Positions 22,191 through 64,000 of a DNA stretch of 64,000 bases are shown one piece after another. The stretch's first letter is position 1. The number at the start of each line of letters is the position of its first letter. Position numbers and translations under genes: made by a program. The notes under the pieces are model-generated. The model was given only the letters and a program-made list of their open reading frames with translations. It ran no database searches and was not told the DNA's origin. The stretch lies in NCBI RefSeq assembly GCF_022846255.1, contig NZ_AP025682.1. One strand, given 5' to 3'. Source of the stretch: Escherichia coli (GTDB lineage Bacteria > Pseudomonadota > Gammaproteobacteria > Enterobacterales > Enterobacteriaceae).

Positions 22191-24977
22191 TTAGTGCGCC
22201 TGATCCCAGTTTTCGCCACTCCCCACTTCCACCAGTAACGGCACATCCAGACGGGTACAGTTTTCCATCAGTTGATGAATCTGCTTCGCGACGGCATCGA
22301 CATCATCTTTATGGACTTCAAATACCAGTTCATCGTGTACCTGCATGATCATACGCACACGCGGTTGCTCAGCCTGTAGCCACGCATCAACGGCAATCAT
22401 CGCCCGTTTGATAATGTCGGCGGCGGTTCCCTGCATTGGCGCGTTAATGGCTGCACGTTCAGCCGCTGCACGACGAGCACCATTGCTGGATTTGATATCC
22501 GGCAGATACAGACGGCGTCCGTCCAGCGTTTCAACGTAGCCCTGCTCTTTCGCCTGAGCACGGGTGCGTTCCATATACTCCAGCACGCCAGGGTAGCGTT
22601 CGAAGTAAAGGTCCATGTACTTCTGCGCTTCTTTACGTGGAATGTTCAATTGCCGCGCCAGACCGAAAGCACTCATGCCATAAATCAGACCAAAGTTGAT
22701 CGCTTTTGCACTACGACGTTGCTCGCTGGTGACGGTTTCCAGTGGCAAACCAAACACTTCTGCCGCCGTTGCACGGTGGATATCTTTTCCTTCCGCGAAT
22801 GCGGTCAGCAAGCCTTTGTCACGCGAGAGATGCGCCATAATGCGCAGTTCAATCTGCGAGTAGTCCGCTGAGACAATCACATAATCCTCTGGCGCAATAA
22901 ACGCCTGGCGGATACGGCGACCTTCTTCGTTACGCACCGGAATGTTTTGCAGGTTAGGATCGGTTGACGATAAACGTCCCGTTGCGGTTACTGCCTGGTG
23001 ATAAGAGGTATGTACACGCCCGGTTTTCGGGTTGATCATCAACGGCAGCTTGTCGGTGTAGGTCGATTTCAGCTTCGCCAGACCACGATACTCCAGAATC
23101 ACTTTTGGCAACGGATAGTCCAGCGCCAGTTCTTCCAGTACCTCTTCCGACGTTGACGGCGCGCCACCCGGAGTTTTCTTCAGCGGTTTAATGCCCTGTT
23201 TTTCAAACAGAATGGTTTGTAACTGCTTGGTGGAAGAAAGGTTAAATTCTTCACCTGCAATTTCATGCGCTTTCTTTTCCAGCTCAGCCAGACGCAAGGT
23301 GAGCTCTTCAGAGTGATTGTGCAGCACTTTCGGATCGATCTTCACACCGTTACGTTCAATGCGTGAAAGCACCGGCACCAGCGGCATTTCGATATTCTCG
23401 AAGACGTTCAACGGCCCTTTGTGTTTTTGCAGATCCGGCCACATTTTCAGATGCAACTGCAAGGTGACATCTGCATCTTCGGCGGCGTAACGCCCGGCTT
23501 CTTCGAGGGCAATCTGGTTAAAGGTCAGTTGATTTTTGCCTTTACCCGCAATCTCTTCAAAAGTGATGGTTTTGTGCTTCAACCAACGTTCCGCGAGGCT
23601 GTCCATATCGTGACGCCCGGCAACGCTATTGAGAATGTAGGACTCCAGCATGGTATCAAACGCAATCCCACGTAGTTCAATGCCGTAGTTCGCCAGAATA
23701 CCGCGATCGTATTTCAGGTTTTGCCCGACCTTCAGCGCCTTTTCATCTTCCAGCAGCGGTTTTAGCAACTCGAGTGCACGCTCGCGAGAGATTTGATCGG
23801 GCGCATCAAGATAATCATGAGCAACCGGAATATATGCCGCTACGCCTGGCTCGATAGCAAAAGAAAGCCCGACCAGGTTAGCAGAGATGTTATCAAGGCT
23901 GTCAGTTTCGGTATCAAATGCAAATACCGGCGCTTTTTCCAGCTTCGCAATCCACTCTTTCAGTGTTTCTTCATCAAGGATGGTGACGTAGTTGTCATAA
24001 GAAATCACCGTTGCCGTCACTTCTGGCGCTTCGTCTGCAACACTGGTTTCCTGCGGCCTGGCTGCGGGTTTCGCCCCTTTAGCCTGTAGCCATTTTCCCG
24101 CTTCGACATCAGCAGTCCAGCGTTTGAACTCATACTTTTTGAACAGCCCTAACAACTCTTCCGCCGCCGGTGGCTGCACTTCCAGTTGTTCACAGGTCAG
24201 CTCCAGTTCAACGTCGGTTTTAATCGTCGCCAGCTGGTATGAGAGATAAGCAACTTCTTTGTTTTGCTCGAGCTTCGCTGCCATTGTTTTCGCGCCACGG
24301 AAGCTCAACCCAGCAATTTTTTCTGGCTCGGCATACAGCGTATCCAGCCCGCCAAGACCTTGCAGCAATGCCTGCGCGGTTTTTTCACCGACGCCCGGTA
24401 CGCCAGGAATGTTATCAGAGGAGTCACCCATCAGCGCCAGGAAATCGATGATCAGTTCTGGCGGCACGCCGTACTTATTCACCACCTCTTCCGGTCCGAG
24501 GATGGTATTCGTCATGGTGTTGATAAGCGTGATATTTGGTGTCACCAGCTGCGCCATATCTTTATCGCCAGTGCTGATCAGCACCGGACGCCCGGCTTTT
24601 TCGGCTTCGCGCGCCAGAGTACCAATAACGTCGTCCGCTTCTACGCCAGAAACCGCCAGCAGCGGCAGTCCCATCGCTTTAACCATCGCGTGCAGAGGTT
24701 CGATTTGTGCTCGCAGATCGTCCGGCATTGGCGGGCGATGTGATTTGTAATGTTCAAACAGTTCATCACGAAAGGTTTTTCCCTTGGCGTCAAAGACCAC
24801 CGCTGCATGCGTCGGTTTATATTGCATGATCAGACTGCGCAGCATGTTGAGGACACCATACATCGCACCGGTCGGCTCGCCTGCGCTGTTAGTCAGCGGG
24901 GGAAACGCGTGATATGCGCGATAAAGGTAAGATGAACCATCTACAAGGATAAGTGGATTTTGGGGGATCTGAACCAT
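22191..24977 (-). CDS. polA: DNA polymerase I
   Basis: 928 aa; 5'-3' exonuclease, 3'-5' exonuclease and polymerase domains; [25 protein letters not shown]... Confidence 0.97.
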
Positions 24978-54473: not shown

Positions 54474-55241
54474 ATGGCAGAAACCTCTTCAACCACCGCA
54501 GGCGCACAAACGTTATTACGTGGACTGGCGGTTCTTAATGCTGTTTATAACGGCTGCCATGACCTAAAAAGTATCGGCGAGTTCACCGGCACGACCCGGA
54601 GCACAACCCATCGTTTAGTCACCGTTCTGGTGGAACAACGCTACCTGCGCCATGTCCCAACGCAGGGCTACCAACTGGGTGCCAAACTGATCGAATTTGG
54701 TGCCAGAGCACTGGAAAGCACCTCGCTGTACGAAATTGCCCAGCCCGTTTTGCAACGCCTTGCCCGTTACACCCTGGACACCGTGCATCTGGGGATCGTT
54801 GAAGGCGACGAAGTGCTGTATCTGGAGAAGATCAACAGTCAGCGCGGGCTGGAAATGCGCTCACGCCCAGGCCATCGCATGCCACTGGCAATCACCGGCA
54901 TCGGCAAGGCATTGATCCTCAACCGAACAGAAGAAGAGTGGCGCACGCTGTTTAAGACCTGTGGTGATGAAACAAAACTGGGCACATTTATTCAGAACAT
55001 GCGTCGTTATGCCGCCAGTGGTTTTGCTTTTGATCTGGAAGAGAACGAGCCGACTATCCGTTGCGTTGCAGCGCCGGTTTACAACGCCCGGGATGAAATT
55101 GTGGCGGCTATTTCTGTCGCCAGTACCACCACGTATATGTCGCTGGCGCGTCTGGAAGAACTGGCACCTTACGTCAAATCCTGTGCAGAAGAGATATCCG
55201 CTGAACTGGGCTGGGGTAAGCACGTCCGCAAAGATAAATAA
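54474..55241 (+). CDS. IclR-family transcriptional regulator (KdgR-like)
   Basis: Start taken at ATG 54474 (RBS AGGAG 8 bp upstream): MAETSSTTAGAQTLLRGLAVLNAVYNGCHDLKSIGEFTGTTRSTTHRLVTVL...; N-terminal wHTH plus C-terminal effector domain; ~255 aa. Confidence 0.8.
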   Translation: MAETSSTTAGAQTLLRGLAVLNAVYNGCHDLKSIGEFTGTTRSTTHRLVTVLVEQRYLRHVPTQGYQLGAKLIEFGARALESTSLYEIAQPVLQRLARYTLDTVHLGIVEGDEVLYLEKINSQRGLEMRSRPGHRMPLAITGIGKALILNRTEEEWRTLFKTCGDETKLGTFIQNMRRYAASGFAFDLEENEPTIRCVAAPVYNARDEIVAAISVASTTTYMSLARLEELAPYVKSCAEEISAELGWGKHVRKDK

Positions 55242-55264
55242 ACCATGATTAAAGGAAACGACTA

Positions 55265-56269
55265 ATGCCGGGAGCACCCTCATTTATTGCCCTGGACTGG
55301 GGAACGTCATCGCTTCGGGCATGGCGTTTTGGCGAATCACCAAATCCACAAGAAAAACGTGAATTCCCCTGGGGGATCATGAAATTACCCTCCCAGGCAG
55401 CAACACGTGAGGACGCTTTCCACGATACGTTTTTACGTGTCTGCGGCGACTGGCTGGCACAAACCCCATGCCCGGTACTGGCTTGCGGCATGCTCGGCAG
55501 TGCGCAAGGGTGGCAATCAGCAGCTTATTTACCTTGCCCGGTCACTCTCGAGGGTCTGGCGAAGCAGTTGACGCCTGTTATCCACCAGCAGCAGACAATG
55601 CTGCATATCATTCCTGGCGTGATTAAAGAAGGTGAAATGCCCGAAGTGATGCGTGGCGAAGAAACACAAATCTTCGGTGCTATCTCGATGGAACCGGCCC
55701 TGCAAAACGCGATCCATCAGGGTATGCCAGTGCTGATAGGCTTACCCGGCACACATGCGAAATGGGCAGTAGTTGAAAACAACACCATTACCGATTTCCG
55801 AACCTTTATGACGGGCGAGTTATTTGATGTTTTATCCCGCCATTCGATTCTCGGTGCCACCATGCATCCTGGAGATGAACCGCACTGGGATGCCTTCACC
55901 CACGGGCTGACAGCAGCACAAGAGCATCATCAGACCGGATTATTATCGACGCTGTTTTCGACCCGTTCGCGCCTGCTGACCAGTAATCTTACGTCGTCCT
56001 CGCAGGGGGATTACCTTTCCGGATTACTGATAGGCCATGAATTATGTGGTCTGGCATCCAGTTTGCTACGTGATTTACCCGCCACAACACCGATCGCCTT
56101 AATCGGTAGCGCAAATCTGAACAGCCGCTATTCACAAGCATTCAGCCACGTTTTTCCCGACAGACAGATACACGCCATTCCTAATGCCACTGAACAGGGA
56201 TTATGGCGAATCGCCCACGCTGCCGGGTTACTGTCCACCAACGCCAGGGAATGTACCCATGCCATTTAA
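55265..56269 (+). CDS. 2-dehydro-3-deoxygalactonokinase family protein (DgoK paralog)
   Basis: 334 aa; motifs shared with remembered E. coli DgoK: IALDWGTSSLRAW, MRGEETQIFGA, LPGTHAKW, DFRTFMTGELFDVL, DYLSGLLIGHE. Confidence 0.8.
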   Translation: MPGAPSFIALDWGTSSLRAWRFGESPNPQEKREFPWGIMKLPSQAATREDAFHDTFLRVCGDWLAQTPCPVLACGMLGSAQGWQSAAYLPCPVTLEGLAKQLTPVIHQQQTMLHIIPGVIKEGEMPEVMRGEETQIFGAISMEPALQNAIHQGMPVLIGLPGTHAKWAVVENNTITDFRTFMTGELFDVLSRHSILGATMHPGDEPHWDAFTHGLTAAQEHHQTGLLSTLFSTRSRLLTSNLTSSSQGDYLSGLLIGHELCGLASSLLRDLPATTPIALIGSANLNSRYSQAFSHVFPDRQIHAIPNATEQGLWRIAHAAGLLSTNARECTHAI

Positions 56270-56888
56270 TACGCTTTTGCAAAAAACCGGGTTAGTCGCC
56301 ATTTTACGCGGCGTGAAACCGGATGAGATTGTCGCCATCGGTGAAAAACTGTACGCCGCCGGATTCCGCCTGATTGAGATTCCTATGAACTCGCCGGAGG
56401 CGTTGCAAAGTATCAGTATACTGCGCGACGCCCTGCCTAAGGACTGCCTGGTCGGAGCCGGAACTGTGCTTTCGGTAGAGCAGGTGGTTGCGGTTAAAGA
56501 GGCTGGGGGCCAGATTATCGTGATGCCGCATTGCGATACTGCGGTGATCCGTCGCGCCCGTGCGCTGGGTATGTATTGTGCGCCTGGCGTCGCCACGCCC
56601 ACCGAAGCCTTTGCTGCCATTGAACATGGTGCTAATGCCATCAAGCTGTTCCCGGCTGAACAAATTACGCCAGAAGTTACCAAAGCCTGGCGTGCGGTTA
56701 TTCCACAATCCGTTCCGATGTTACCGGTTGGCGGTATCACACCGGAAACCATGGCGCGTTATCTGAGCCACGGCGCAAACGGCTTTGGCCTCGGTTCTGC
56801 GCTATATCGCCCCGGCATGACGCCAGAGCAAGTCTATGAAAATGCAGTACTGTTTATGAACGCATGGAACAATTTAAATAGCAACTAA
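56259..56888 (+). CDS. 2-dehydro-3-deoxy-6-phosphogalactonate (KDPGal/KDPG) aldolase family protein (DgoA paralog)
   Basis: Start at ATG 56259 overlapping kinase stop (ATGCCATTTAA); MPFNTLLQKTGLVAILRGVKPDEIVAIGEKLYAAGFRLIEIPMNSPEALQS...GAGTVL...; strong similarity to remembered DgoA. Confidence 0.8.
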   Translation: MPFNTLLQKTGLVAILRGVKPDEIVAIGEKLYAAGFRLIEIPMNSPEALQSISILRDALPKDCLVGAGTVLSVEQVVAVKEAGGQIIVMPHCDTAVIRRARALGMYCAPGVATPTEAFAAIEHGANAIKLFPAEQITPEVTKAWRAVIPQSVPMLPVGGITPETMARYLSHGANGFGLGSALYRPGMTPEQVYENAVLFMNAWNNLNSN

Positions 56889-56912
56889 CTGATAAATAAG
56901 GATATAAAAGCA

Positions 56913-57887
56913 ATGATAAAACATCTTACCTTACCGAAAAAAATGGCTGCAATGGTACTTCTTGCAGGCGCTGCCCTCAGCATTGCGCCTGTACAGGCAG
57001 CCTCCTGGCCAACCAAACAGATCGAGTTAGTCGTTCCCTACGCTGCCGGAGGCGGTACGGATCTGGTTGCCCGTGCCTTTGCTGATGCCGCCAAAAACCA
57101 TTTACCCGTCAGCATCGGGGTTATCAATAAACCTGGCGGAGGCGGTGCTATCGGCCTGAGTGAAATCGCCGCTGCCCGCCCTAACGGTTACAAAATTGGT
57201 TTAGGCACGGTTGAACTGACCACCCTTCCCAGCCTCGGAATGGTGCGTTTTAAAACCAGCGACTTTAAACCCATTGCCCGTCTGAATGCGGATCCGGCTG
57301 CTATCACAGTCCGTGCCGATGCGCCGTGGAATAGCTATGAAGAATTTATGGCTTACTCCAAAGCGAATCCCGGAAAAGTACGCATTGGTAACTCAGGCAC
57401 CGGAGCTATCTGGCATCTGGCGGCAGCTGCACTGGAAGACAAAACGGGCACAAAGTTTTCTCATGTCCCGTATGACGGCGCAGCCCCTGCCATTACAGGC
57501 CTGTTAGGCGGGCACATTGAAGCGGTTTCCGTAAGCCCAGGAGAAGTTATCAACCATGTGAATGGCGGCAAGCTGAAGACACTGGTAGTGATGGCGGATG
57601 AGCGAATGAAAACCATGCCTGACGTCCCGACGTTAAAAGAGAAAGGCGTTGATCTCTCCATCGGCACCTGGCGCGGCCTGATTGTGTCGCAAAAAACGCC
57701 GCAGGATGTGGTGGATGTTCTGGCAAAGGCAGCAAAAGAGACGGCTGAAGAGCCTGCATTCCAGGATGCACTGCAAAAGTTGAATCTCAACTATGCATGG
57801 CTTGACGCTGCCAGCTTCCAGACCCAAATCAGCGAACAGGAAAAGTACTTTGACGAGTTGCTGACTCGCCTGGGCCTGAAAAAATAA
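56913..57887 (+). CDS. tripartite tricarboxylate transporter (TTT) periplasmic substrate-binding protein, TctC/Bug family
   Basis: 324 aa with signal peptide ...AALSIAPVQAASWP; Bug-family motifs VPYAAGGGTD, KPGGGGAIG. Confidence 0.8.
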   Translation: MIKHLTLPKKMAAMVLLAGAALSIAPVQAASWPTKQIELVVPYAAGGGTDLVARAFADAAKNHLPVSIGVINKPGGGGAIGLSEIAAARPNGYKIGLGTVELTTLPSLGMVRFKTSDFKPIARLNADPAAITVRADAPWNSYEEFMAYSKANPGKVRIGNSGTGAIWHLAAAALEDKTGTKFSHVPYDGAAPAITGLLGGHIEAVSVSPGEVINHVNGGKLKTLVVMADERMKTMPDVPTLKEKGVDLSIGTWRGLIVSQKTPQDVVDVLAKAAKETAEEPAFQDALQKLNLNYAWLDAASFQTQISEQEKYFDELLTRLGLKK

Positions 57888-57900
57888 ACCTGAGGTACGG

Positions 57901-58410
57901 TTGATGAACACAAAACAGTCTGTTGCTCAACTCGCCGTACCGCACCGCAAGCGCCTTTCATCAACGATGGTGGTGGCGCTGTTACTTTGTGTGGTTGCTG
58001 GCGCGGTGATGATTAATGCCGCTGATTTTCCAGCAACTGCCATTGAAACGGATCCCGGTGCAAGTGCCTTCCCTACCTTCTATGCCTGTGCCCTGATTGT
58101 GCTCGCTGTCTTGCTGGTGATACGCGATCTTTTGCAGGCAAAACCAGCCTCTTGCGCCAACGCACAGGAAAAACCGGCATTCAGGAAAACAGCAACAGGA
58201 ATTGCGGCAACCGCGTTTTATATTGTGGCGATGAGCTACTGCGGTTATCTCATTACTACTCCTGTTTTCCTCATCGTCATTATGACGTTGATGGGCTACA
58301 GGCGATGGGTACTCACACCGGGTATTGCGCTGCTGTTAACGGCAATCCTCTGGTTGCTGTTTGTCGAAGCGTTACAGGTGCCATTGCCTGTCGGCACATT
58401 TTTCGAATAA
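57901..58410 (+). CDS. TTT small membrane subunit (TctB-like)
   Basis: 169 aa, 4 predicted TM helices, positioned between TctC-like and TctA-like genes. Confidence 0.7.
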   Translation: MMNTKQSVAQLAVPHRKRLSSTMVVALLLCVVAGAVMINAADFPATAIETDPGASAFPTFYACALIVLAVLLVIRDLLQAKPASCANAQEKPAFRKTATGIAATAFYIVAMSYCGYLITTPVFLIVIMTLMGYRRWVLTPGIALLLTAILWLLFVEALQVPLPVGTFFE

Positions 58411-58422
58411 CAGGGGCCAGCA

Positions 58423-59913
58423 ATGTTTGAAAGTGAACTTTTAACTCAGGGTTTTTCGACATTACTCAATAATCCTCAGGCGCTGCTGTTTGCCACTTTT
58501 GGGGTGATGCTGGGTATTGTGATTGGCGCTTTGCCTGGTCTGACAGCGACCATGGGTGTGGCGATTTTGCTGCCTTTCACCTACGGCATGGAGCCTGTTT
58601 CTGGATTGTTGATGATTTGCGGCGTCTTTTTTGGTGGCGTCTACGGTGGTTCTATCACCGCAATTTTGCTCAAAATTCCCGGAACGCCTGCCGCCGCAGC
58701 CACCGCTATTGATGGTTATGAGCTGACGAAACAGGGAAAAGCAGGGCTGGCATTGAGTGCCGCCACGTTCTCTTCCTTTAGTGGCGGAACGCTCAGCATT
58801 ATCGTGCTGATGTTTCTCTCTCCGGTACTTGCCAGTTGGGCGCTGAAATTTAGTGCCTCGGAGTCCTTCGCCCTGGCAACCTTCGGACTGAGCATTATTG
58901 CCAGTATTTCCGGTGAGTCGCTGATTAAGGGGCTGATTGCCGGGGTTGGCGGATTGCTGATCGCAACGATAGGCCTTGATCCAATGGGCGGTTTTCCACG
59001 GTTTACAGGTGGATTTGTGGAGCTGATGAATGTGCCATTTATCCCGGTGATGATTGGTTTATTTGCTGCTTCAGAAGCATTCCGCTCTATGGAGCAAAAC
59101 CAGCAAATTCGTCGGGGCGCGAAGGTGGCTATCGGCAGTCTGTTACTGCCCTGGCAAACACTACGCCGCATCGCATTAACCATTTTGCGCTCATCAGGAT
59201 TAGGGGTTTTTATCGGCATGATCCCCGGTGCGGGGGCGGATATTGCAGCTTTTGTTGCCTATAACGAAACTCGTCGTTTCAGTAAGACACCAGAAAACTT
59301 TGGTAAGGGTGAAATTAAAGCTGTGGCCTCCTGTGAGGCAGGCGCGAATGGCTGCACCGGTGGCGCATTGTTACCTATGCTGACGCTGGGGATCCCTGGC
59401 GATGCGGTAACCGCCATCATGCTGGGCGCGTTAACGTTACAGGGAATGCAACCAGGCCCGCTGATGTTTACCGACCACGGCGATATGGTTTATACACTGT
59501 TTGTCGGCATGATCTTTTGTTACTTCATGCTGCTAGTTCTTGGACTGCTCTCTTTGAAAGTCATCGGTAACGTGGTGAAGATCCCCGGCAATATTCTCAC
59601 ACCGATGATCCTCGCACTTTGTGTGGTCGGGACTTATGCGTTGAACAATAGCCTTTTTGATGTTGGCATTATGCTGATTGCAGGCGTGGTGGGCTATTTC
59701 ATGCAGAAAGGAGGATATCCGGCATCACCCGTAGTGCTGGCATTGATTATGGGGCCAATGGCGGAAAGTAATTTTCGCCGTGCGCTGTCGCTTTCTGGTG
59801 GGTCACTCGACTTTCTGTATACCCGACCGATCACTCTGGCATTGCTAACTCTGGCAGCCTTTACGCTACTGACGCCAATAATCCGCAAAATAATGCGTTT
59901 ACGGCGTCAGTAA
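58423..59913 (+). CDS. TTT large permease subunit (TctA-like)
   Basis: 496 aa polytopic membrane protein with duplicated-domain architecture typical of TctA. Confidence 0.8.
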   Translation: MFESELLTQGFSTLLNNPQALLFATFGVMLGIVIGALPGLTATMGVAILLPFTYGMEPVSGLLMICGVFFGGVYGGSITAILLKIPGTPAAAATAIDGYELTKQGKAGLALSAATFSSFSGGTLSIIVLMFLSPVLASWALKFSASESFALATFGLSIIASISGESLIKGLIAGVGGLLIATIGLDPMGGFPRFTGGFVELMNVPFIPVMIGLFAASEAFRSMEQNQQIRRGAKVAIGSLLLPWQTLRRIALTILRSSGLGVFIGMIPGAGADIAAFVAYNETRRFSKTPENFGKGEIKAVASCEAGANGCTGGALLPMLTLGIPGDAVTAIMLGALTLQGMQPGPLMFTDHGDMVYTLFVGMIFCYFMLLVLGLLSLKVIGNVVKIPGNILTPMILALCVVGTYALNNSLFDVGIMLIAGVVGYFMQKGGYPASPVVLALIMGPMAESNFRRALSLSGGSLDFLYTRPITLALLTLAAFTLLTPIIRKIMRLRRQ

Positions 59914-59920
59914 CTGATAT

Positions 59921-60973: not shown

Positions 60974-61783
60974 ATGGCAACAACACAACAATCTGGATTT
61001 GCACCTGCTGCATCGCCTCTCGCTTCGACCATCGTTCAGACTCCGGACGACGCGATTGTGGCGGGCTTCACCTCTATCCCTTCACAAGGGGATAACATGC
61101 CTGCTTACCATGCCAGACCAAAGCAAAGCGATGGCCCACTGCCAGTGGTCATTGTAGTGCAGGAAATTTTTGGCGTGCATGAACATATCCGCGATATTTG
61201 TCGCCGTCTGGCGCTGGAGGGGTATCTGGCTATCGCACCTGAACTTTACTTCCGCGAAGGCGATCCGAATGATTTTGCCGATATCCCTACGCTGCTTAGC
61301 GGTCTGGTAGCAAAAGTGCCTGACTCGCAGGTGCTGGCCGATCTCGATCATGTCGCCAGTTGGGCTTCCCGCAACGGCGGCGATGTTCATCGTTTAATGA
61401 TCACCGGATTCTGCTGGGGTGGACGTATCACCTGGCTGTATGCCGCGCATAATCCACAGCTAAAAGCCGCAGTGGCGTGGTACGGCAAACTGACGGGCGA
61501 CAAGTCGCTGAATTCACCGAAACAACCTGTTGATATCGCAACCGATCTTAACGCGCCGGTTCTCGGCTTATATGGTGGTCAGGATAACAGCATTCCGCAA
61601 GAGAGTGTGGAAACGATGCGCCAGGCGTTGCGGGCAGCAAACGCGAAAGCAGAGATTATCGTGTACCCGGATGCAGGGCATGCGTTCAACGCCGATTATC
61701 GTCCGAGCTATCATGCCGAGTCTGCGAAAGACGGCTGGCAGCGAATGTTGGAATGGTTTACACAGTATGGTGTTAAAAAGTAA
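60974..61783 (+). CDS. ysgA: dienelactone hydrolase family protein
   Basis: Start at ATG 60974 (RBS GGAG): MATTQQSGFAPAASPLASTIVQTPDD...; alpha/beta hydrolase with GFCWGG nucleophile elbow. Confidence 0.85.
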   Translation: MATTQQSGFAPAASPLASTIVQTPDDAIVAGFTSIPSQGDNMPAYHARPKQSDGPLPVVIVVQEIFGVHEHIRDICRRLALEGYLAIAPELYFREGDPNDFADIPTLLSGLVAKVPDSQVLADLDHVASWASRNGGDVHRLMITGFCWGGRITWLYAAHNPQLKAAVAWYGKLTGDKSLNSPKQPVDIATDLNAPVLGLYGGQDNSIPQESVETMRQALRAANAKAEIIVYPDAGHAFNADYRPSYHAESAKDGWQRMLEWFTQYGVKK

Positions 61784-61848
61784 CGCCATAGTCGCTAAAT
61801 CTGATGATTAAGCTCACACAATTTCAACGATTTTTTTAATCTCAAAAC

Positions 61849-61960
61849 CATACAGCATCAAAAAATTTGTTGCTGTATGCCACTCTTTGACTCCCTTCAC
61901 ATTCGTCATCACACCACCTGCTGAATGCAAAAATTTCGTTGCTGTGCGGCAAACTTTTTT
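61849..61960. promoter_or_regulatory. Repeated AAAAATTT(C)GTTGCTGT motifs, the first inside a 9 bp inverted repeat CATACAGCA-N13-TGCTGTATG; candidate regulatory sites upstream of the hydrolase operon
   Basis: Copies at 61861-61876 and 61930-61945 (~69 bp apart); inverted repeat arms 61849-61857 and 61871-61879; no sigma-70 consensus confidently assigned. Confidence 0.3.
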
Positions 61961-62039
61961 CCTGTTTTGTGCCGCTTTTCTCCTGAATACTCGTTCTCAG
62001 AACAACTGGATCGTTTAAACATCAGACAGGAGATTTACC

Positions 62040-62708
62040 ATGACGCAATCCATTTTTCAGGCTCAACCCTTTGAATTACCTTTTGATCCGCGCACAACTG
62101 CACTGGTCATGATCGACATGCAGCGTGACTTTGTCGAAGCAGGGGGCTTCGGTGAGGCACTGGGCAATGATGTTTCACTGGTACGCACGGCTATCGCACC
62201 ATGTACAGAGGTGCTGGCAGCCGCACGTCAAAAAGGAATTATGGTTATTCATACTCGTGAAGGCCATCGTGCAGACTTAAGCGACTGCCCGCCAGCCAAA
62301 CTGACGCGCGGCGGAAAAACCTTTATTGGTGAACCAGGACCGATGGGACGCATTCTGGTCAGAGGTGAAGCAGGTCATGACATCATTCCTGAACTGTACC
62401 CGGTGGCAGGCGAACCGGTGATTGATAAGCCTGGCAAAGGCGCGTTTTATCAAACCGACTTACATCTGATTTTGCAAAACCACGGTATCAAGACGCTGAT
62501 AGTTTGTGGTGTTACAACCGAAGTTTGCGTAACCACCACCGTGCGCGAAGCAAATGATCGTGGCTATGAATGCATTATCCCGGAAGATTGTGTCGGCTCC
62601 TATTTCCCGGAATTCCAGAAATACGCCCTCGAGATGATCAAAGCACAAGGTGCCATTTTCGGTTGGGTTACTGATTCCAAAGCCATTATTGCAGGCCTGG
62701 AAGGCTAA
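62040..62708 (+). CDS. isochorismatase-family cysteine hydrolase (RutB-like amidohydrolase)
   Basis: 222 aa; RBS ACAGGAGA; catalytic-triad contexts MIDMQRDF (Asp), DKPGKGAFYQT (Lys), GVTTEVCVTTT (Cys); resembles remembered RutB ureidoacrylate amidohydrolase. Confidence 0.8.
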   Translation: MTQSIFQAQPFELPFDPRTTALVMIDMQRDFVEAGGFGEALGNDVSLVRTAIAPCTEVLAAARQKGIMVIHTREGHRADLSDCPPAKLTRGGKTFIGEPGPMGRILVRGEAGHDIIPELYPVAGEPVIDKPGKGAFYQTDLHLILQNHGIKTLIVCGVTTEVCVTTTVREANDRGYECIIPEDCVGSYFPEFQKYALEMIKAQGAIFGWVTDSKAIIAGLEG

Positions 62709-62713
62709 CACCG

Positions 62714-63574
62714 ATGGTACAGGTTACGCTTTGCGCATCGTCGTTGGGATATCTTTTCCCGCAGAATGAAACGCAAGATTTACGTCTACATAGCGCTTTT
62801 AAACATGCGGTAAATCTGTATTCAGACGCGGGAACATTCATCACTCTGTTGTGTGCGCAAACGTATCTGAATCTCCCTGATGCAGCCAGAGTCTGGCTAC
62901 CTGAATGTTGGGACTGGCGAAGAGAGATTGCCCATTCAGATCCCATTCAGTTAACCCCAGGCTTACTGCGGACACCTCGATTTTGTGTGGCGCTCGAAAA
63001 CGCAACGCTCTGGCAGTCGCCATTTGTGGGGGGAATGCTGACACTTGAGGCATTCCCTTTGGTTTTCCAGCACTACCCAACGATGGCATCGCAACGGCTT
63101 TTATTTTGTCTGGAACATAACGTTCAAAGCACATTGCACCTGCCGGATAGTCTCACGCACCAGGGATTAGCGATTATGGAGCATCCAGATGCGCTGGAAC
63201 GCCAGGTGCCACAACTGATCGGCTTTGGTAAAGGCTTAACGCCCGATGGAGATGACTATTTGTTGGGCTATCTGGCAGCACTCTGGTTATGGCAACTCCC
63301 TGCACCACTTGCCGATCATCAATACCGGTTGCAGCAGGTAATTGATCAACATGCGCACAACACCACGGATATCAGTCGTCATTATCTGGAGCGTGCGCTT
63401 CAGGGACATTTTTCAGAACCGATTTGCCAGTTACTCGCACAACTGGTTGGGAGTGCATCGGCAATGACAATCGCATCCTGTGCAGAACAGGTCATGCAAT
63501 TTGGCGCAACGTCAGGAGTAGATTGCCTTGCAGGAATGCTGCATGGCTTTCGAACCCTGAACACCATGAATTGA
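62714..63574 (+). CDS. DUF2877-like protein (AllH/YlbF/YahE-type partner of FdrA-like proteins)
   Basis: 286 aa starting 6 bp after the hydrolase stop (translationally coupled); motif GKGLTPDGDDYLLGYL; family assignment from size and position before an FdrA-like gene. Confidence 0.55.
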   Translation: MVQVTLCASSLGYLFPQNETQDLRLHSAFKHAVNLYSDAGTFITLLCAQTYLNLPDAARVWLPECWDWRREIAHSDPIQLTPGLLRTPRFCVALENATLWQSPFVGGMLTLEAFPLVFQHYPTMASQRLLFCLEHNVQSTLHLPDSLTHQGLAIMEHPDALERQVPQLIGFGKGLTPDGDDYLLGYLAALWLWQLPAPLADHQYRLQQVIDQHAHNTTDISRHYLERALQGHFSEPICQLLAQLVGSASAMTIASCAEQVMQFGATSGVDCLAGMLHGFRTLNTMN

Positions 63575-63668
63575 TTTCAACCTTTTCTCCCGTAGCCCGT
63601 TTATGGGGCTACACGGGGATGCTTTGCCCGAATTTTGCTATCGGGCGGAATGAAACAGGCGTAACAGC

Positions 63669-64000
63669 ATGAAAGTTAAATATAAAGTTTTCAGTAATCT
63701 TTATCAGGACTCAGTTTCTCTGATGCAGATTTCCGCGCAAATCAGCAAGTTGCCCGGTATTCAACAGGCCTCGGTCGTCATGGGAACACCCAATAATCTC
63801 GAGCAATTGAGCGATGCGGGTCTGGGTAACGAAATCAACGCCAGTCCCAATGATTTAGTGATTGCAGTCATGGGTGAAGAAGATATTTGCAATGAAGCAC
63901 TGGTACTGGCCCAGCAACGTCTGACCAGCAAACCCGATGATGAAACGGATAGTGGCATTAAAACACCGGAAAAGGTCAGCCTGGAAATGGCACTGGAAGC
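63669..64000 (+). CDS. FdrA/AllF-like protein (CoA-binding/succinyl-CoA-synthetase-like fold), N-terminal 110 aa only; continues beyond window
   Basis: MKVKYKVFSNLYQDSVSLMQISAQISKLPGIQQASVVMGTPNNLEQLSDAGL...SPNDLVIAVMG aligns with remembered FdrA N-terminus (FQDSVSLM...VMMGTP...TPNDI); no stop in window. Confidence 0.8.
   Translation, partial: MKVKYKVFSNLYQDSVSLMQISAQISKLPGIQQASVVMGTPNNLEQLSDAGLGNEINASPNDLVIAVMGEEDICNEALVLAQQRLTSKPDDETDSGIKTPEKVSLEMALE

What the first reader, a model, noticed from the sequence alone, without database searches (positions are those of the whole stretch)
61849..61960. Paired AAAAATTTNGTTGCTGT repeats and a 9 bp inverted repeat upstream of the hydrolase operon
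Two copies of a 16-17 bp motif lie ~69 bp apart in the 256 bp leader. The first is embedded in the exact inverted repeat CATACAGCA-N13-TGCTGTATG. Such spacing is reminiscent of upstream activator or repressor sites, but no regulator gene is visible in the window, so the cognate factor is unknown.
Basis: seen in the sequence. Interest (0 to 1): 0.35.

Follow-up and report, generated by a model that had tools for sequence, protein, structure and literature searches.

The report
LysR-type operator pair before island operon
The two repeats are almost certainly binding sites for a LysR-family regulator encoded at the far end of the same 8-gene E. coli accessory island, just beyond the window. This is an ordinary kind of promoter control region, placed in front of an uncharacterised nitrogen-compound breakdown operon.

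Summary
Two related boxes (centres 61864 and 61933, 69 bp apart) lie in the 256-bp ysgA–hydrolase spacer, and the first sits in a 31-bp palindrome (61849-61879). They are not chance: they are the only strong matches in 64 kb.

Leaders of the same operon in about 45 other genera carry the same box, a 21-bp dyad AGCATCAAA-N3-TTTGATGCT of the T-N11-A type. The promoter-proximal box always lies 51-53 bp upstream of a conserved TATACT/AATACT hexamer, which puts it at about -65. A weak second dyad follows 22 bp downstream.

A conserved CRP-like site (61886-61901) lies between the boxes and keeps its helical phase across clades. A degenerate third dyad lies 31 bp upstream of box 1.

The island ends with a LysR-family gene about 5.3 kb past the window end. 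Its closest characterised relative is PunR. PunR's published operator has the same core and the same geometry.

Box presence tracks the presence of this regulator gene. I therefore read the element as a multi-site LysR-type operator with CRP co-control.

It is a new member of a known kind. No transcription start or protein binding has been measured.

The parts
61773..61773 (.). Left junction of the ~8.85-kb accessory island. Homology to K-12 ysgA ends at 61772.
   Evidence: blastn against the K-12 ysgA-metE region. All regulatory elements below lie in island-specific DNA. The island replaces the K-12 60-bp spacer and its terminator hairpin.
61803..61818 (+). Conserved TCACA block (GATGATTAAGCTCACA). 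It matches a CRP site 8/10, but only the right half is conserved.
   Evidence: The CACA columns are invariant in the 22-sequence Enterobacterales alignment. Pattern scan. Role not established.
61823..61843 (.). Site 0: degenerate third dyad TTCAACGATTTTTTTAATCTC, centre 61833, 31 bp upstream of site 1.
   Evidence: It scores 6.1 bits, in the 100th percentile of background. The same offset of -31/-32 is found in 17 of 18 correctly assigned Enterobacterales leaders, with up to 18.6 bits in Serratia.
61849..61879 (.). 31-bp palindrome CATACAGCATCAAA-AAA-TTTGTTGCTGTATG. The outer 5 bp of each arm are an E. coli-specific extension of site 1.
   Evidence: I4. Complementarity beyond +/-10 is not conserved in other genera. 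As RNA it forms a stable hairpin (z = -4.4), but no U-tract follows.
61854..61874 (.). Site 1: near-consensus LysR-type box AGCATCAAAAAATTTGTTGCT, centre 61864 (predicted about -134).
   Evidence: 27.1 bits, the best hit in the window. TTG is invariant in alignment A1.
61886..61901 (.). CRP-like site TTTGA-CTCCCT-TCACA (9/10), centre 61893.5 (predicted about -104.5).
   Evidence: Conserved in most Enterobacterales leaders and, with better left halves, in most Vibrionales leaders. Its distance to the site 2 centre is 29.5-30.5, 39.5-40.5, 49.5-51.5 or 60.5 bp in different clades, which is the same helical face.
61923..61943 (.). Site 2: promoter-proximal LysR-type box GAATGCAAAAATTTCGTTGCT, centre 61933 (predicted about -65). 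Proposed recognition site (RBS).
   Evidence: 19.2 bits. The distance from its centre to the conserved -10 hexamer is 51-53 bp in nearly all lineages. The validated PunR box has the same geometry.
61945..61965 (.). ABS-like weak dyad TGCGGCAAACTTTTTTCCTGT, centre 61955, 22 bp downstream of site 2. It overlaps the -35 region.
   Evidence: In all 30 leaders scanned the best weak dyad lies 18-26 bp downstream of site 2, mostly at 21-23 bp. Scores average -5.0 against a background of -17.2, and the E. coli site is in the 99th percentile. The A/TT/CT columns are invariant in A1.
61986..61991 (+). Predicted sigma-70 -10 hexamer AATACT (TATACT in most relatives). The -35 is poor (TGTTTT, 61963-61968).
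   Evidence: A, C and T are invariant in A1. Constant distance from site 2. The start near 61998-61999 (conserved CAG) is inferred, not measured.
62028..62033 (+). Shine-Dalgarno sequence AGGAGA of the first gene.
   Evidence: Conserved CAGGAGA in A1.
62040..62708 (+). First gene of the operon: cysteine hydrolase of the biuret/triuret hydrolase family.
   Evidence: NCBIfam BiuH 1.3e-83, below the equivalog cutoff. PDB TrtA 6xix 9e-80 and BiuH 1e-69.

Best explanation
The two repeats are operator boxes (T-N11-A dyads, family consensus AGCATCAAA-N3-TTTGATGCT) for a LysR-type transcriptional regulator (LTTR) of the PunR/AllS subfamily. That regulator is the last gene of the same accessory island: hydrolase, DUF2877, FdrA, DUF1116, carbamate kinase, a small allophanate-hydrolase-like protein, an NCS1 permease, then LysR.

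Site 2 (centre 61933) is the promoter-proximal recognition site at about -65 of a weak sigma-70 promoter (-10 AATACT, 61986-61991). A degenerate activation-type dyad lies 22 bp downstream over the -35 region. Site 1 (centre 61864, about -134) is a stronger auxiliary box. A weak partner dyad lies 31 bp further upstream.

A CRP-like site at about -104.5 lies between sites 1 and 2.

Proposed mechanism (inferred, not shown):
- LTTR tetramers occupy the strong boxes constitutively.
- Binding of an inducer shifts contacts onto the -43 dyad and recruits RNA polymerase. The inducer is probably a ureide taken up by the permease.
- cAMP-CRP adds catabolite control and bends the spacer, so that the upstream-bound regulator can contribute.

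Shown here: the sequence anatomy, the conservation, the fixed geometry, the linkage to the regulator gene, and the similarity to the PunR operator.

Inferred: the transcription start, actual binding, the sign of regulation and the inducer.
For: 1. Unbiased MAFFT alignment of 22 Enterobacterales leaders gives conserved islands exactly at both boxes, the CRP-like site, the ABS-like block, the -10 and the SD.
2. The box recurs upstream of the orthologous hydrolase in Enterobacterales, Vibrionales, Burkholderiales, Neisseriales and Xanthomonadales. There are 66 hits of at least 15 bits in 32.8 kb of leaders against 12 in 1.54 Mb elsewhere. All four perfect ATCAAA-N3-TTTGAT matches in 1.57 Mb lie at -116/-117 of the hydrolase gene.
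3. The distance from the site 2 centre to the -10 hexamer is 51-53 bp in nearly all lineages. This is the canonical -65 position of an LTTR recognition site (established LTTR knowledge).
4. The LTTR gene is part of the conserved cluster. Box present in 39/43 leaders with the regulator gene against 6/39 without (Fisher 2e-12). Within Burkholderiaceae the split is 7/7 against 0/6. Loci not used to train the matrix (L030, L033, L052, L058, L060, L061, L072) still score 16-20 bits.
5. The island LTTR's best family matches are PunR (2e-85) and AllS (2e-63). Its recognition helix PSAISYTIK compares with PSAVSYTVR in PunR.
6. The published, experimentally validated PunR operator TsttwTCAAwAwwwTTGaaGGCA (PMC8376909) has the same core. 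My matrix finds it as the only hit in the K-12 punR-punC region (15.1 bits). It also lies 53 bp from a TACACT hexamer, and the second-best matrix window in that intergenic region, a weak one (1.4 bits), lies 22 bp downstream of it.
7. Site 1-site 2 spacings fall in classes of 69-71, 79-81 and 100-103 bp. CRP-site offsets fall at 30, 40, 50 and 60 bp. These differ by whole helical turns.
8. The palindrome is single-copy per genome and restricted to the island.
Against: - No transcription start, binding or expression data exist. The -65 assignment rests on a predicted -10.
- The regulator gene is not divergently transcribed, as is typical of LTTRs. It lies 7.3 kb away at the 3' end of the operon.
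- The upstream box (site 1) is stronger than the -65 box, which is atypical.
- The weight matrix was seeded by eye and trained on many of the same leaders, so the enrichment figures are partly circular.
- The co-occurrence statistic ignores phylogeny and GC content. Many loci without the regulator are high-GC actinobacteria or assembled metagenome genomes.
- The chromosomal paralog PunR has a similar operator and could bind instead.
- The plasmid-borne copy of the island keeps the regulator (91% identical) but has damaged boxes. Tight coupling is therefore not universal.
- The left half of the CRP-like site is weak (TTTGA).
Confidence: 0.78

Rival explanations
1. The boxes are real LTTR operators, but the protein that uses them in E. 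coli is the core-genome paralog PunR or another LTTR, not the island-encoded regulator.
For: The PunR operator shares the TCAAA-N5-TTTGA core. It scores 15.1 bits with the island matrix, and its half GCCTGCAAAA resembles the left half of site 2.
Against: - The boxes co-occur with the island LTTR in genera and contexts far from E. coli, and are absent from sister Caballeronia clusters that lack it.
- The island LTTR is only 35% identical to PunR.
- AllS-controlled K-12 intergenic regions lack the box (best 3.7 bits).
Confidence: 0.1
2. The 31-bp palindrome is mainly an RNA hairpin that ends or stabilises the ysgA transcript. The second copy is then incidental.
For: - The RNA hairpin is stable (region MFE -23.7 kcal/mol, z = -4.4).
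- The island removed the K-12 ysgA-metE terminator hairpin.
- No other terminator-like element lies between 61783 and 61849.
- The outer 5 bp of each arm are E. coli-specific, so a secondary role in forming the ysgA 3' end is possible.
Against: - No U-tract follows the stem (CCACUCUUUGAC).
- The palindrome core is conserved where ysgA is not upstream (Serratia, Rahnella, Edwardsiella, Vibrionales).
- Symmetry is conserved only to about +/-9, the size of a protein dyad site.
- This reading does not explain site 2, the fixed spacing to the -10, or the linkage to the regulator.
Confidence: 0.07
3. The repeats are CytR operators (GTTGCATT-type half sites next to CRP), extending the neighbouring udp CytR regulon.
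For: Site 2 reads AATGCAAA...CGTTGC, which resembles inverted CytR octamers (from my own knowledge of the CytR consensus). A CRP-like site is adjacent, udp is nearby, and the operon includes a 'cytosine permease'-type transporter.
Against: - The TGCAA resemblance is lineage-specific. The family consensus is ATCAAA-N3-TTTGAT.
- There is one CRP-like site between the boxes rather than the tandem CRP pair that CytR bridges.
- The element travels with the island into genomes and plasmids unrelated to udp.
Confidence: 0.03
4. The element is a chance repeat, or a relic of the island's insertion such as a recombination site, with no regulatory role.
For: The palindrome lies only 76 bp inside the left island junction. 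A 9-mer, TGTATGCCA, is inverted near the right end (about 0.1 expected by chance).
Against: - The motif statistics argue against chance.
- No flanking direct or inverted terminal repeats were found.
- The element is conserved at fixed distances from promoter elements in dozens of genera with different flanks.
- It is single-copy per genome.
Confidence: 0.02

Closest known systems
PunR (YdhB) operator at the E. coli K-12 punC promoter (Rodionova et al. 2021, PMC8376909)
   Same: - The core dyad is the same: TCAAA-N5-TTTGA inside a palindrome of about 21-23 bp.
- The regulator belongs to the same LTTR subfamily. PunR is the best NCBIfam match of the island regulator, and the recognition helices are similar.
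- The geometry is the same: box centre 53 bp upstream of a TAnACT hexamer, and the second-best matrix window in that spacer, a weak one (1.4 bits), 22 bp downstream.
   Different: - The island regulator is a paralog, 35% identical and below the PunR equivalog cutoff.
- It is not divergently transcribed.
- The target is an 8-gene catabolic operon rather than a single transporter gene.
- There are two strong boxes 69 bp apart, plus a third weak one and a CRP-like site. PunR has a single palindrome.
- The inducer is unknown. For PunR it is adenine.
AllS activation of the allD and allF(GHK) operons in the E. coli allantoin regulon (PMC12535856)
   Same: - An LTTR of the same subfamily (second-best match, 2e-63).
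- It controls an operon that encodes FdrA/DUF1116/DUF2877 (oxamic transcarbamylase, PMC11326118) plus a carbamate kinase. These are paralogs of four island genes.
- A global regulator co-controls each system: ArcA there, a putative CRP site here.
   Different: - The K-12 allD-allF and allS-allA intergenic regions contain no match to the island box (best 3.7 bits), so DNA specificity differs.
- AllS is encoded elsewhere in the regulon.
Classical LTTR promoters with a recognition site at -65 and activation sub-sites near -35 (BenM/CatM, CbnR, AtzR-atzDEF; from my own knowledge of the family)
   Same: - A T-N11-A dyad at about -65.
- A weaker dyad two helical turns downstream over a poor -35.
- An activator-dependent promoter.
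- AtzR likewise controls biuret/allophanate-type nitrogen catabolism.
   Different: - An extra, stronger box at about -134, with its own weak partner arranged as a mirror image.
- A CRP-like site between the two modules.
- The regulator gene lies at the distal end of the operon.

Membership tests
LysR-type regulator operator (T-N11-A box, RBS/ABS promoter) | Dyad-symmetric box with T-N11-A | tested here: met
   Site 1 ATCAAA-AAA-TTTGTT and site 2 TGCAAA-AAT-TTCGTT. The family consensus ATCAAA-N3-TTTGAT has T(2)-N11-A(14).
LysR-type regulator operator (T-N11-A box, RBS/ABS promoter) | Recognition site centred near -65 of the regulated promoter | tested here: inconclusive
   The site 2 centre lies 51-53 bp upstream of a conserved TATACT/AATACT hexamer in nearly all lineages. 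That implies about -65, but the start site is predicted, not mapped.
LysR-type regulator operator (T-N11-A box, RBS/ABS promoter) | Weaker activation-site dyad about 2 turns downstream, overlapping -35 | tested here: met
   A degenerate dyad lies 18-26 bp downstream in all 30 leaders scanned, mostly at 21-23 bp. Scores are well above background, and the E. coli site is in the 99th percentile.
LysR-type regulator operator (T-N11-A box, RBS/ABS promoter) | Cognate LTTR gene genetically linked to the target | tested here: met
   The LTTR gene is the last gene of the island. It is conserved with the cluster. The box and the gene co-occur.
LysR-type regulator operator (T-N11-A box, RBS/ABS promoter) | LTTR gene divergently transcribed from the operator (typical, not obligatory) | tested here: not met
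   In E. coli and most relatives the gene is co-directional at the 3' end. In Vibrionales it is co-directional just upstream. It is divergent only in Neisseriales and Pseudovibrio relatives.
LysR-type regulator operator (T-N11-A box, RBS/ABS promoter) | Physical binding of the regulator and inducer-dependent footprint change | not testable with these tools
   Needs EMSA, DNase footprinting or ChIP.
PunR regulon (punC-type operator) | Operator matches TsttwTCAAwAwwwTTGaaGGCA | tested here: met
   The core is shared. The island matrix recovers the validated PunR site at 15.1 bits as the only hit in 5 kb. The outer flanks differ.
PunR regulon (punC-type operator) | Regulator is a PunR ortholog | tested here: not met
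   286.7 bits against the equivalog cutoff of 345, and 35% identity to K-12 PunR. It is a paralog, not PunR.
cAMP-CRP binding site | TGTGA-N6-TCACA dyad | tested here: met
   61886-61901 matches 9/10. The right half is invariant across most of Enterobacterales and the left half is variable. Full 9-10/10 sites occur in Motilimonas, Thorsellia and Avibacterium leaders.
cAMP-CRP binding site | Position on the activating face of the helix relative to the promoter | tested here: inconclusive
   Offsets from site 2 of 29.5-30.5, 39.5-40.5, 49.5-51.5 and 60.5 bp keep one helical phase. A rough chance estimate for three further classes is about 0.02. Absolute positions depend on the predicted start.
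Rho-independent terminator (of ysgA) | Stable stem-loop immediately followed by a U-tract | tested here: not met
   The stem is stable, but it is followed by CCACUCUUUGAC. The scan calls no terminator there. The one call at 61938-61950 reflects adjacent half-sites of site 2 and the ABS being mutually complementary.
Dispersed repeat / mobile-element end (REP, IS terminal repeat) | Multiple copies per genome or paired terminal repeats | tested here: not met
   One place per genome in about 1,500 genomes. No terminal repeats at the island ends.
Known structured RNA (Rfam) | Match at the family gathering score | tested here: not met
   Only a sub-threshold hit: Mu-gpT-DE, 19.8 bits against a gathering score of 49, E = 0.05, at 61981-62042.

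The most novel reading that the evidence does not exclude
The four phased dyads (weak-strong ... strong-weak) together with the CRP-type sites may assemble a higher-order complex. In it, two LTTR tetramers would communicate across a CRP-bent 69-bp spacer. That would be a looped, dual-input switch not described for PunR-type regulators. It would control a previously unrecognised ATP-yielding pathway in which a biuret/triuret-type hydrolase feeds a transcarbamylase-like FdrA/DUF1116/DUF2877 enzyme and a carbamate kinase. The island occurs in ExPEC, BL21 and many environmental Proteobacteria.
Probability: 0.15. Interest if true: 0.55.

Novelty: new member of a known kind. Interest (0 to 1): 0.35.

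Why it matters
This gives a concrete, testable regulatory model for an uncharacterised accessory island: regulator, operators, promoter and CRP input. The island is carried by about 28% of complete E. coli genomes, including ExPEC lineages, BL21-type laboratory strains and ColV-type plasmids, and it is conserved across Proteobacteria.

The operon couples a triuret/biuret-hydrolase-like enzyme to paralogs of the recently identified oxamic transcarbamylase and a catabolic carbamate kinase. Knowing the regulator and its sites is the practical route to finding the inducer, and therefore the substrate of the pathway.

As a regulatory element it is ordinary. Its value lies in annotation and in enabling experiments.

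Tried and rejected
- **Sigma-54, NtrC, NAC, FNR, IHF, PurR and ArcA consensus scans** of 61773-62042. Nothing was convincing: NtrC-like 8/12 only, and no sigma-54 or NAC match.
- **Simple sigma-70 scan.** It found no plus-strand promoter, consistent with an activator-dependent promoter. The -10 was identified by conservation instead. An alternative promoter reading of the upstream block (CTCACA-N16-TTTAAT) was rejected because CACA is the conserved part, not the TTG of a -35.
- **Terminator call at 61938-61950**. It is explained as the complementarity of neighbouring half-sites.
- **Extended-hairpin covariation around site 1.** Complementarity beyond +/-10 is at chance level outside E. coli.
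- **AllS-type sites.** None is present in the K-12 allD-allF or allS-allA spacers.
- **A conserved strong matrix hit downstream of lysR in Rahnella**. It lies inside the start of a small secreted-protein gene and encodes NVKIFAV, so it is a coding coincidence.
- **Rfam.** Nothing at threshold.
- **Literature**. No study of this island's regulation was found. It is listed as 'GR 29' in PMC12928451 with a speculative function only.
- **Cluster look-up.** Only generic names exist for the regulator.
- **Genome-wide regulon search.** Whole-genome scanning of an island-bearing E. coli for further matrix hits was not possible with these tools. Only a 40-nt BLAST was run.

Full report
**Observation.** The window is E. 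coli. ysgA ends at 61783 and a cysteine-hydrolase gene starts at 62040, so the spacer is 256 bp. The two motif copies are at 61860-61876 and 61929-61945, 69 bp apart. The first lies in an inverted repeat that is longer than reported: 14-nt arms, 13/14 complementary, around a 3-nt centre, at 61849-61879.

The motif has 2 hits in 64 kb against 0.05 expected, and the exact dyad is unique.

**Genomic context.** The region matches about 1,500 of 5,426 complete E. coli genomes, plus about 120 plasmids. In a fully annotated match (L001) the hydrolase opens an eight-gene, same-strand island:
- cysteine hydrolase
- DUF2877 protein
- FdrA
- DUF1116 protein
- carbamate kinase
- a 129-aa protein like the C-terminal domain of allophanate hydrolase
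- an NCS1 'cytosine permease'
- a LysR-family regulator

metE follows the island. K-12 lacks it. Homology to K-12 stops at 61772 on the left and inside the metE 3' end on the right. The island replaces a 60-bp spacer that carries a terminator hairpin. All elements discussed here are island DNA. The regulator gene lies about 7.3 kb downstream of the hydrolase start, which is 5.3 kb beyond the window end.

**Comparative footprinting.** A scan of one genome per species returned 80 loci encoding close relatives of the hydrolase. The gene order, with LysR last, is conserved in Enterobacterales, Burkholderiales, Dyella and Silvimonas. In Vibrio, Photobacterium, Shewanella and relatives the LysR gene sits just upstream on the same strand. 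In some Neisseriales it is divergent.

A MAFFT alignment of 22 Enterobacterales leaders shows discrete conserved blocks:
- a TCACA block followed by CAACnATTTTTT
- box 1 (GCATCAA..TTTGCTGC)
- TTTGA-N6-TCACA
- box 2 (TGCAAAA..TTCGTTGCTG)
- AAAnCnTTT..CTGT
- TATACT
- the ribosome-binding site

An iteratively built palindromic matrix has the consensus AGCATCAAAAATTTTGATGCT, a T-N11-A dyad. In the window it scores 27.1 bits at 61854-61874 and 19.2 bits at 61923-61943, with nothing else above 12.2. Over all loci there are 66 hits of at least 15 bits in 32.8 kb of leaders and 12 in the other 1.54 Mb. These figures are partly circular, because many of the leaders trained the matrix. However, leaders not used for training also score 16-20 bits. 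All four perfect seed matches in 1.57 Mb lie at -116/-117 of the hydrolase gene.

**Geometry.** The centre of the promoter-proximal box lies 51-53 bp upstream of the conserved TATACT/AATACT hexamer in nearly every lineage. With AATACT at 61986-61991 and a conserved CAG at 61998-62000, the start is predicted near 61998. This places site 2 at about -65.

A degenerate dyad follows 18-26 bp downstream in all 30 leaders scanned, mostly at 21-23 bp. The E. coli copy is at 61945-61965, in the 99th percentile of background. It overlaps a poor -35.

Site 1 is at about -134, and a weak third dyad (61823-61843) lies 31 bp further upstream. That offset recurs in 17 of 18 correctly assigned Enterobacterales leaders. 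The upstream pair (weak-strong) is therefore a mirror image of the downstream pair (strong-weak).

Between sites 1 and 2 lies TTTGA-CTCCCT-TCACA (61886-61901), a 9/10 match to a CRP site. Its offset from site 2 is 39.5-40.5 bp in the E. coli, Citrobacter, Rahnella and Serratia group. It is 49.5-51.5 bp in Buttiauxella and Budvicia, 29.5-30.5 bp in Vibrionales, and 60.5 bp in Thorsellia. These steps are whole helical turns. Site 1-site 2 spacings likewise fall at 69-71, 79-81 and 100-103 bp. The phase conservation suggests that the bound proteins must face each other or the polymerase in a fixed way. With only three or four independent spacing classes, the statistical support is modest (my rough estimate is about 0.02 for the CRP offsets).

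**The regulator.** The island LysR matches the NCBIfam models for PunR (2e-85, below the equivalog cutoff) and AllS (2e-63) best. It is 35% and 34% identical to the K-12 proteins, so it is a distinct paralog. All sources name it only generically.

PunR's operator has been predicted by footprinting and validated by ChIP-exo, fluorescence polarisation and EMSA. Its consensus is TsttwTCAAwAwwwTTGaaGGCA (PMC8376909), which has the same core as the island box. The island matrix finds that operator as the only hit in the K-12 punR-punC region (15.1 bits). It also lies 53 bp upstream of a TACACT hexamer. The second-best matrix window in that intergenic region, a weak one (1.4 bits), lies 22 bp downstream of it. 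That is the geometry seen at site 2. The recognition helices are similar: PSAISYTIK against PSAVSYTVR. The AllS-controlled K-12 spacers do not contain the box.

**Linkage of box and regulator.** The box is present in 39 of 43 leaders whose cluster includes the regulator gene, and in 6 of 39 without it (Fisher 2e-12). Four of those six 'exceptions' have a more distant, divergently oriented LysR homolog next to the hydrolase. The test ignores phylogeny and base composition. A fairer contrast is within Burkholderiaceae: 7 of 7 clusters with the regulator have the box (17-20 bits), and 0 of 6 without it do (at most 10.8 bits).

**Mechanism proposed.** The boxes are operators for the island's own LTTR. 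Site 2 plus the -43 dyad form a classical recognition/activation module on an activator-dependent sigma-70 promoter. Site 1, with site 0, is an auxiliary high-affinity module. CRP between them adds catabolite control and DNA bending. Inducer binding, start site, sign of regulation and CRP occupancy are all inferences.

**Rivals.**
- *A ysgA terminator.* The RNA hairpin is stable (z = -4.4) and the island removed the K-12 terminator. But no U-tract follows it. The core is conserved where ysgA is absent. Symmetry is conserved only to about +/-9. A secondary role for the E. coli-specific arm extension is not excluded.
- *PunR cross-binding.* It cannot be excluded from sequence alone.
- *CytR, chance or an insertion relic.* These are poorly supported.
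- *A known RNA family.* No match was found.

**What the operon may do (context only).** The hydrolase is closest to the solved triuret hydrolase TrtA (6xix, 9e-80) and to biuret hydrolases (1e-69). FdrA/DUF1116/DUF2877 are paralogs of the oxamic transcarbamylase AllFGH (PMC11326118), and a carbamate kinase follows. Co-location of biuH/trtA with allFGHK has been noted in nitrifier genomes (PMC12625717). The E. coli island is listed as 'GR 29' with a speculative function only (PMC12928451). I found no study of its regulation.

**Verdict.** This is a genuine, conserved regulatory element and a new member of a well-known kind: an LTTR operator array with a probable CRP input. The finding is useful for annotation and for discovering the island's substrate, but it is not surprising to a specialist.

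Noticed in passing
window ~54475-59914: A second non-K-12 insertion lies between rmuC and udp. It carries an IclR-family regulator, a 2-dehydro-3-deoxygalactonokinase-like gene, a KDPGal-aldolase-like gene and a tripartite tricarboxylate transporter (Bug/TctB/TctA). In K-12, rmuC lies 140 bp from udp.
   Followed up: no
window 61544-61772 and L001 24626 onward: The last 229 nt of ysgA shared with K-12 are only 90% identical. The metE side of the island is 99% identical. The island replaced the K-12 60-bp ysgA-metE spacer, including its terminator hairpin ACCGGGTGGTATTACCACCCGGT.
   Followed up: partly
L002 11780-12017 (plasmid pMS1718-1): About 120 plasmids, here next to an ABC-transporter/MFS cluster, carry a copy of the whole island whose proteins are 91-97% identical. 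The leader is homologous, but both boxes are damaged: site 1 has a C-to-G change at the key position and site 2 has a +1-bp spacer (matrix best 7.3 bits). The plasmid regulator has two substitutions in the recognition helix (A33T, I38L).
   Followed up: partly
H18, H22 (BL21 TaKaRa, Rosetta2-DE3 chromosomes): The island and its palindrome are present in E. coli B laboratory strains. The regulatory model can therefore be tested in standard strains.
   Followed up: no
L084 11856-11876 (K-12 541855-541875, ybbY/glxK junction): A 20.3-bit match to the island box (CGCATCGAATAATTTGTTGAA) lies just upstream of glxK in the allantoin regulon. Two further hits of 16-17 bits lie inside allD and ppiB. This is more than the background rate predicts for 26 kb.
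   Followed up: no
L001 23555-23631 (between permease and LysR genes): The 77-bp gap holds a TATACT hexamer and a 10-bp-stem hairpin, GGCTGAATCT-GGAG-AGATTCAGCC (23583-23606). There is no LysR-type box. The regulator gene may have its own promoter or an attenuating structure.
   Followed up: no
window 62040-64000 and L001 16341-23554: The operon pairs a triuret/biuret-hydrolase-like enzyme with paralogs of oxamic transcarbamylase (FdrA/DUF1116/DUF2877), a carbamate kinase, a stand-alone allophanate-hydrolase C-terminal-like domain and an NCS1 permease. This suggests an ATP-yielding route for a ureide compound. The hydrolase is 82-92% identical across distant Proteobacteria.
   Followed up: partly
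window 61981-62042: A sub-threshold Rfam hit to Mu-gpT-DE RNA (19.8 bits against a gathering score of 49, E = 0.05) covers the predicted 5' UTR. It is probably chance.
   Followed up: no
window 61874-61882 and L001 ~24545-24553: The 9-mer TGTATGCCA at the right edge of the palindrome recurs inverted (TGGCATACA) just after the LysR stop, near the right island end. About 0.1 such matches are expected by chance.
   Followed up: no
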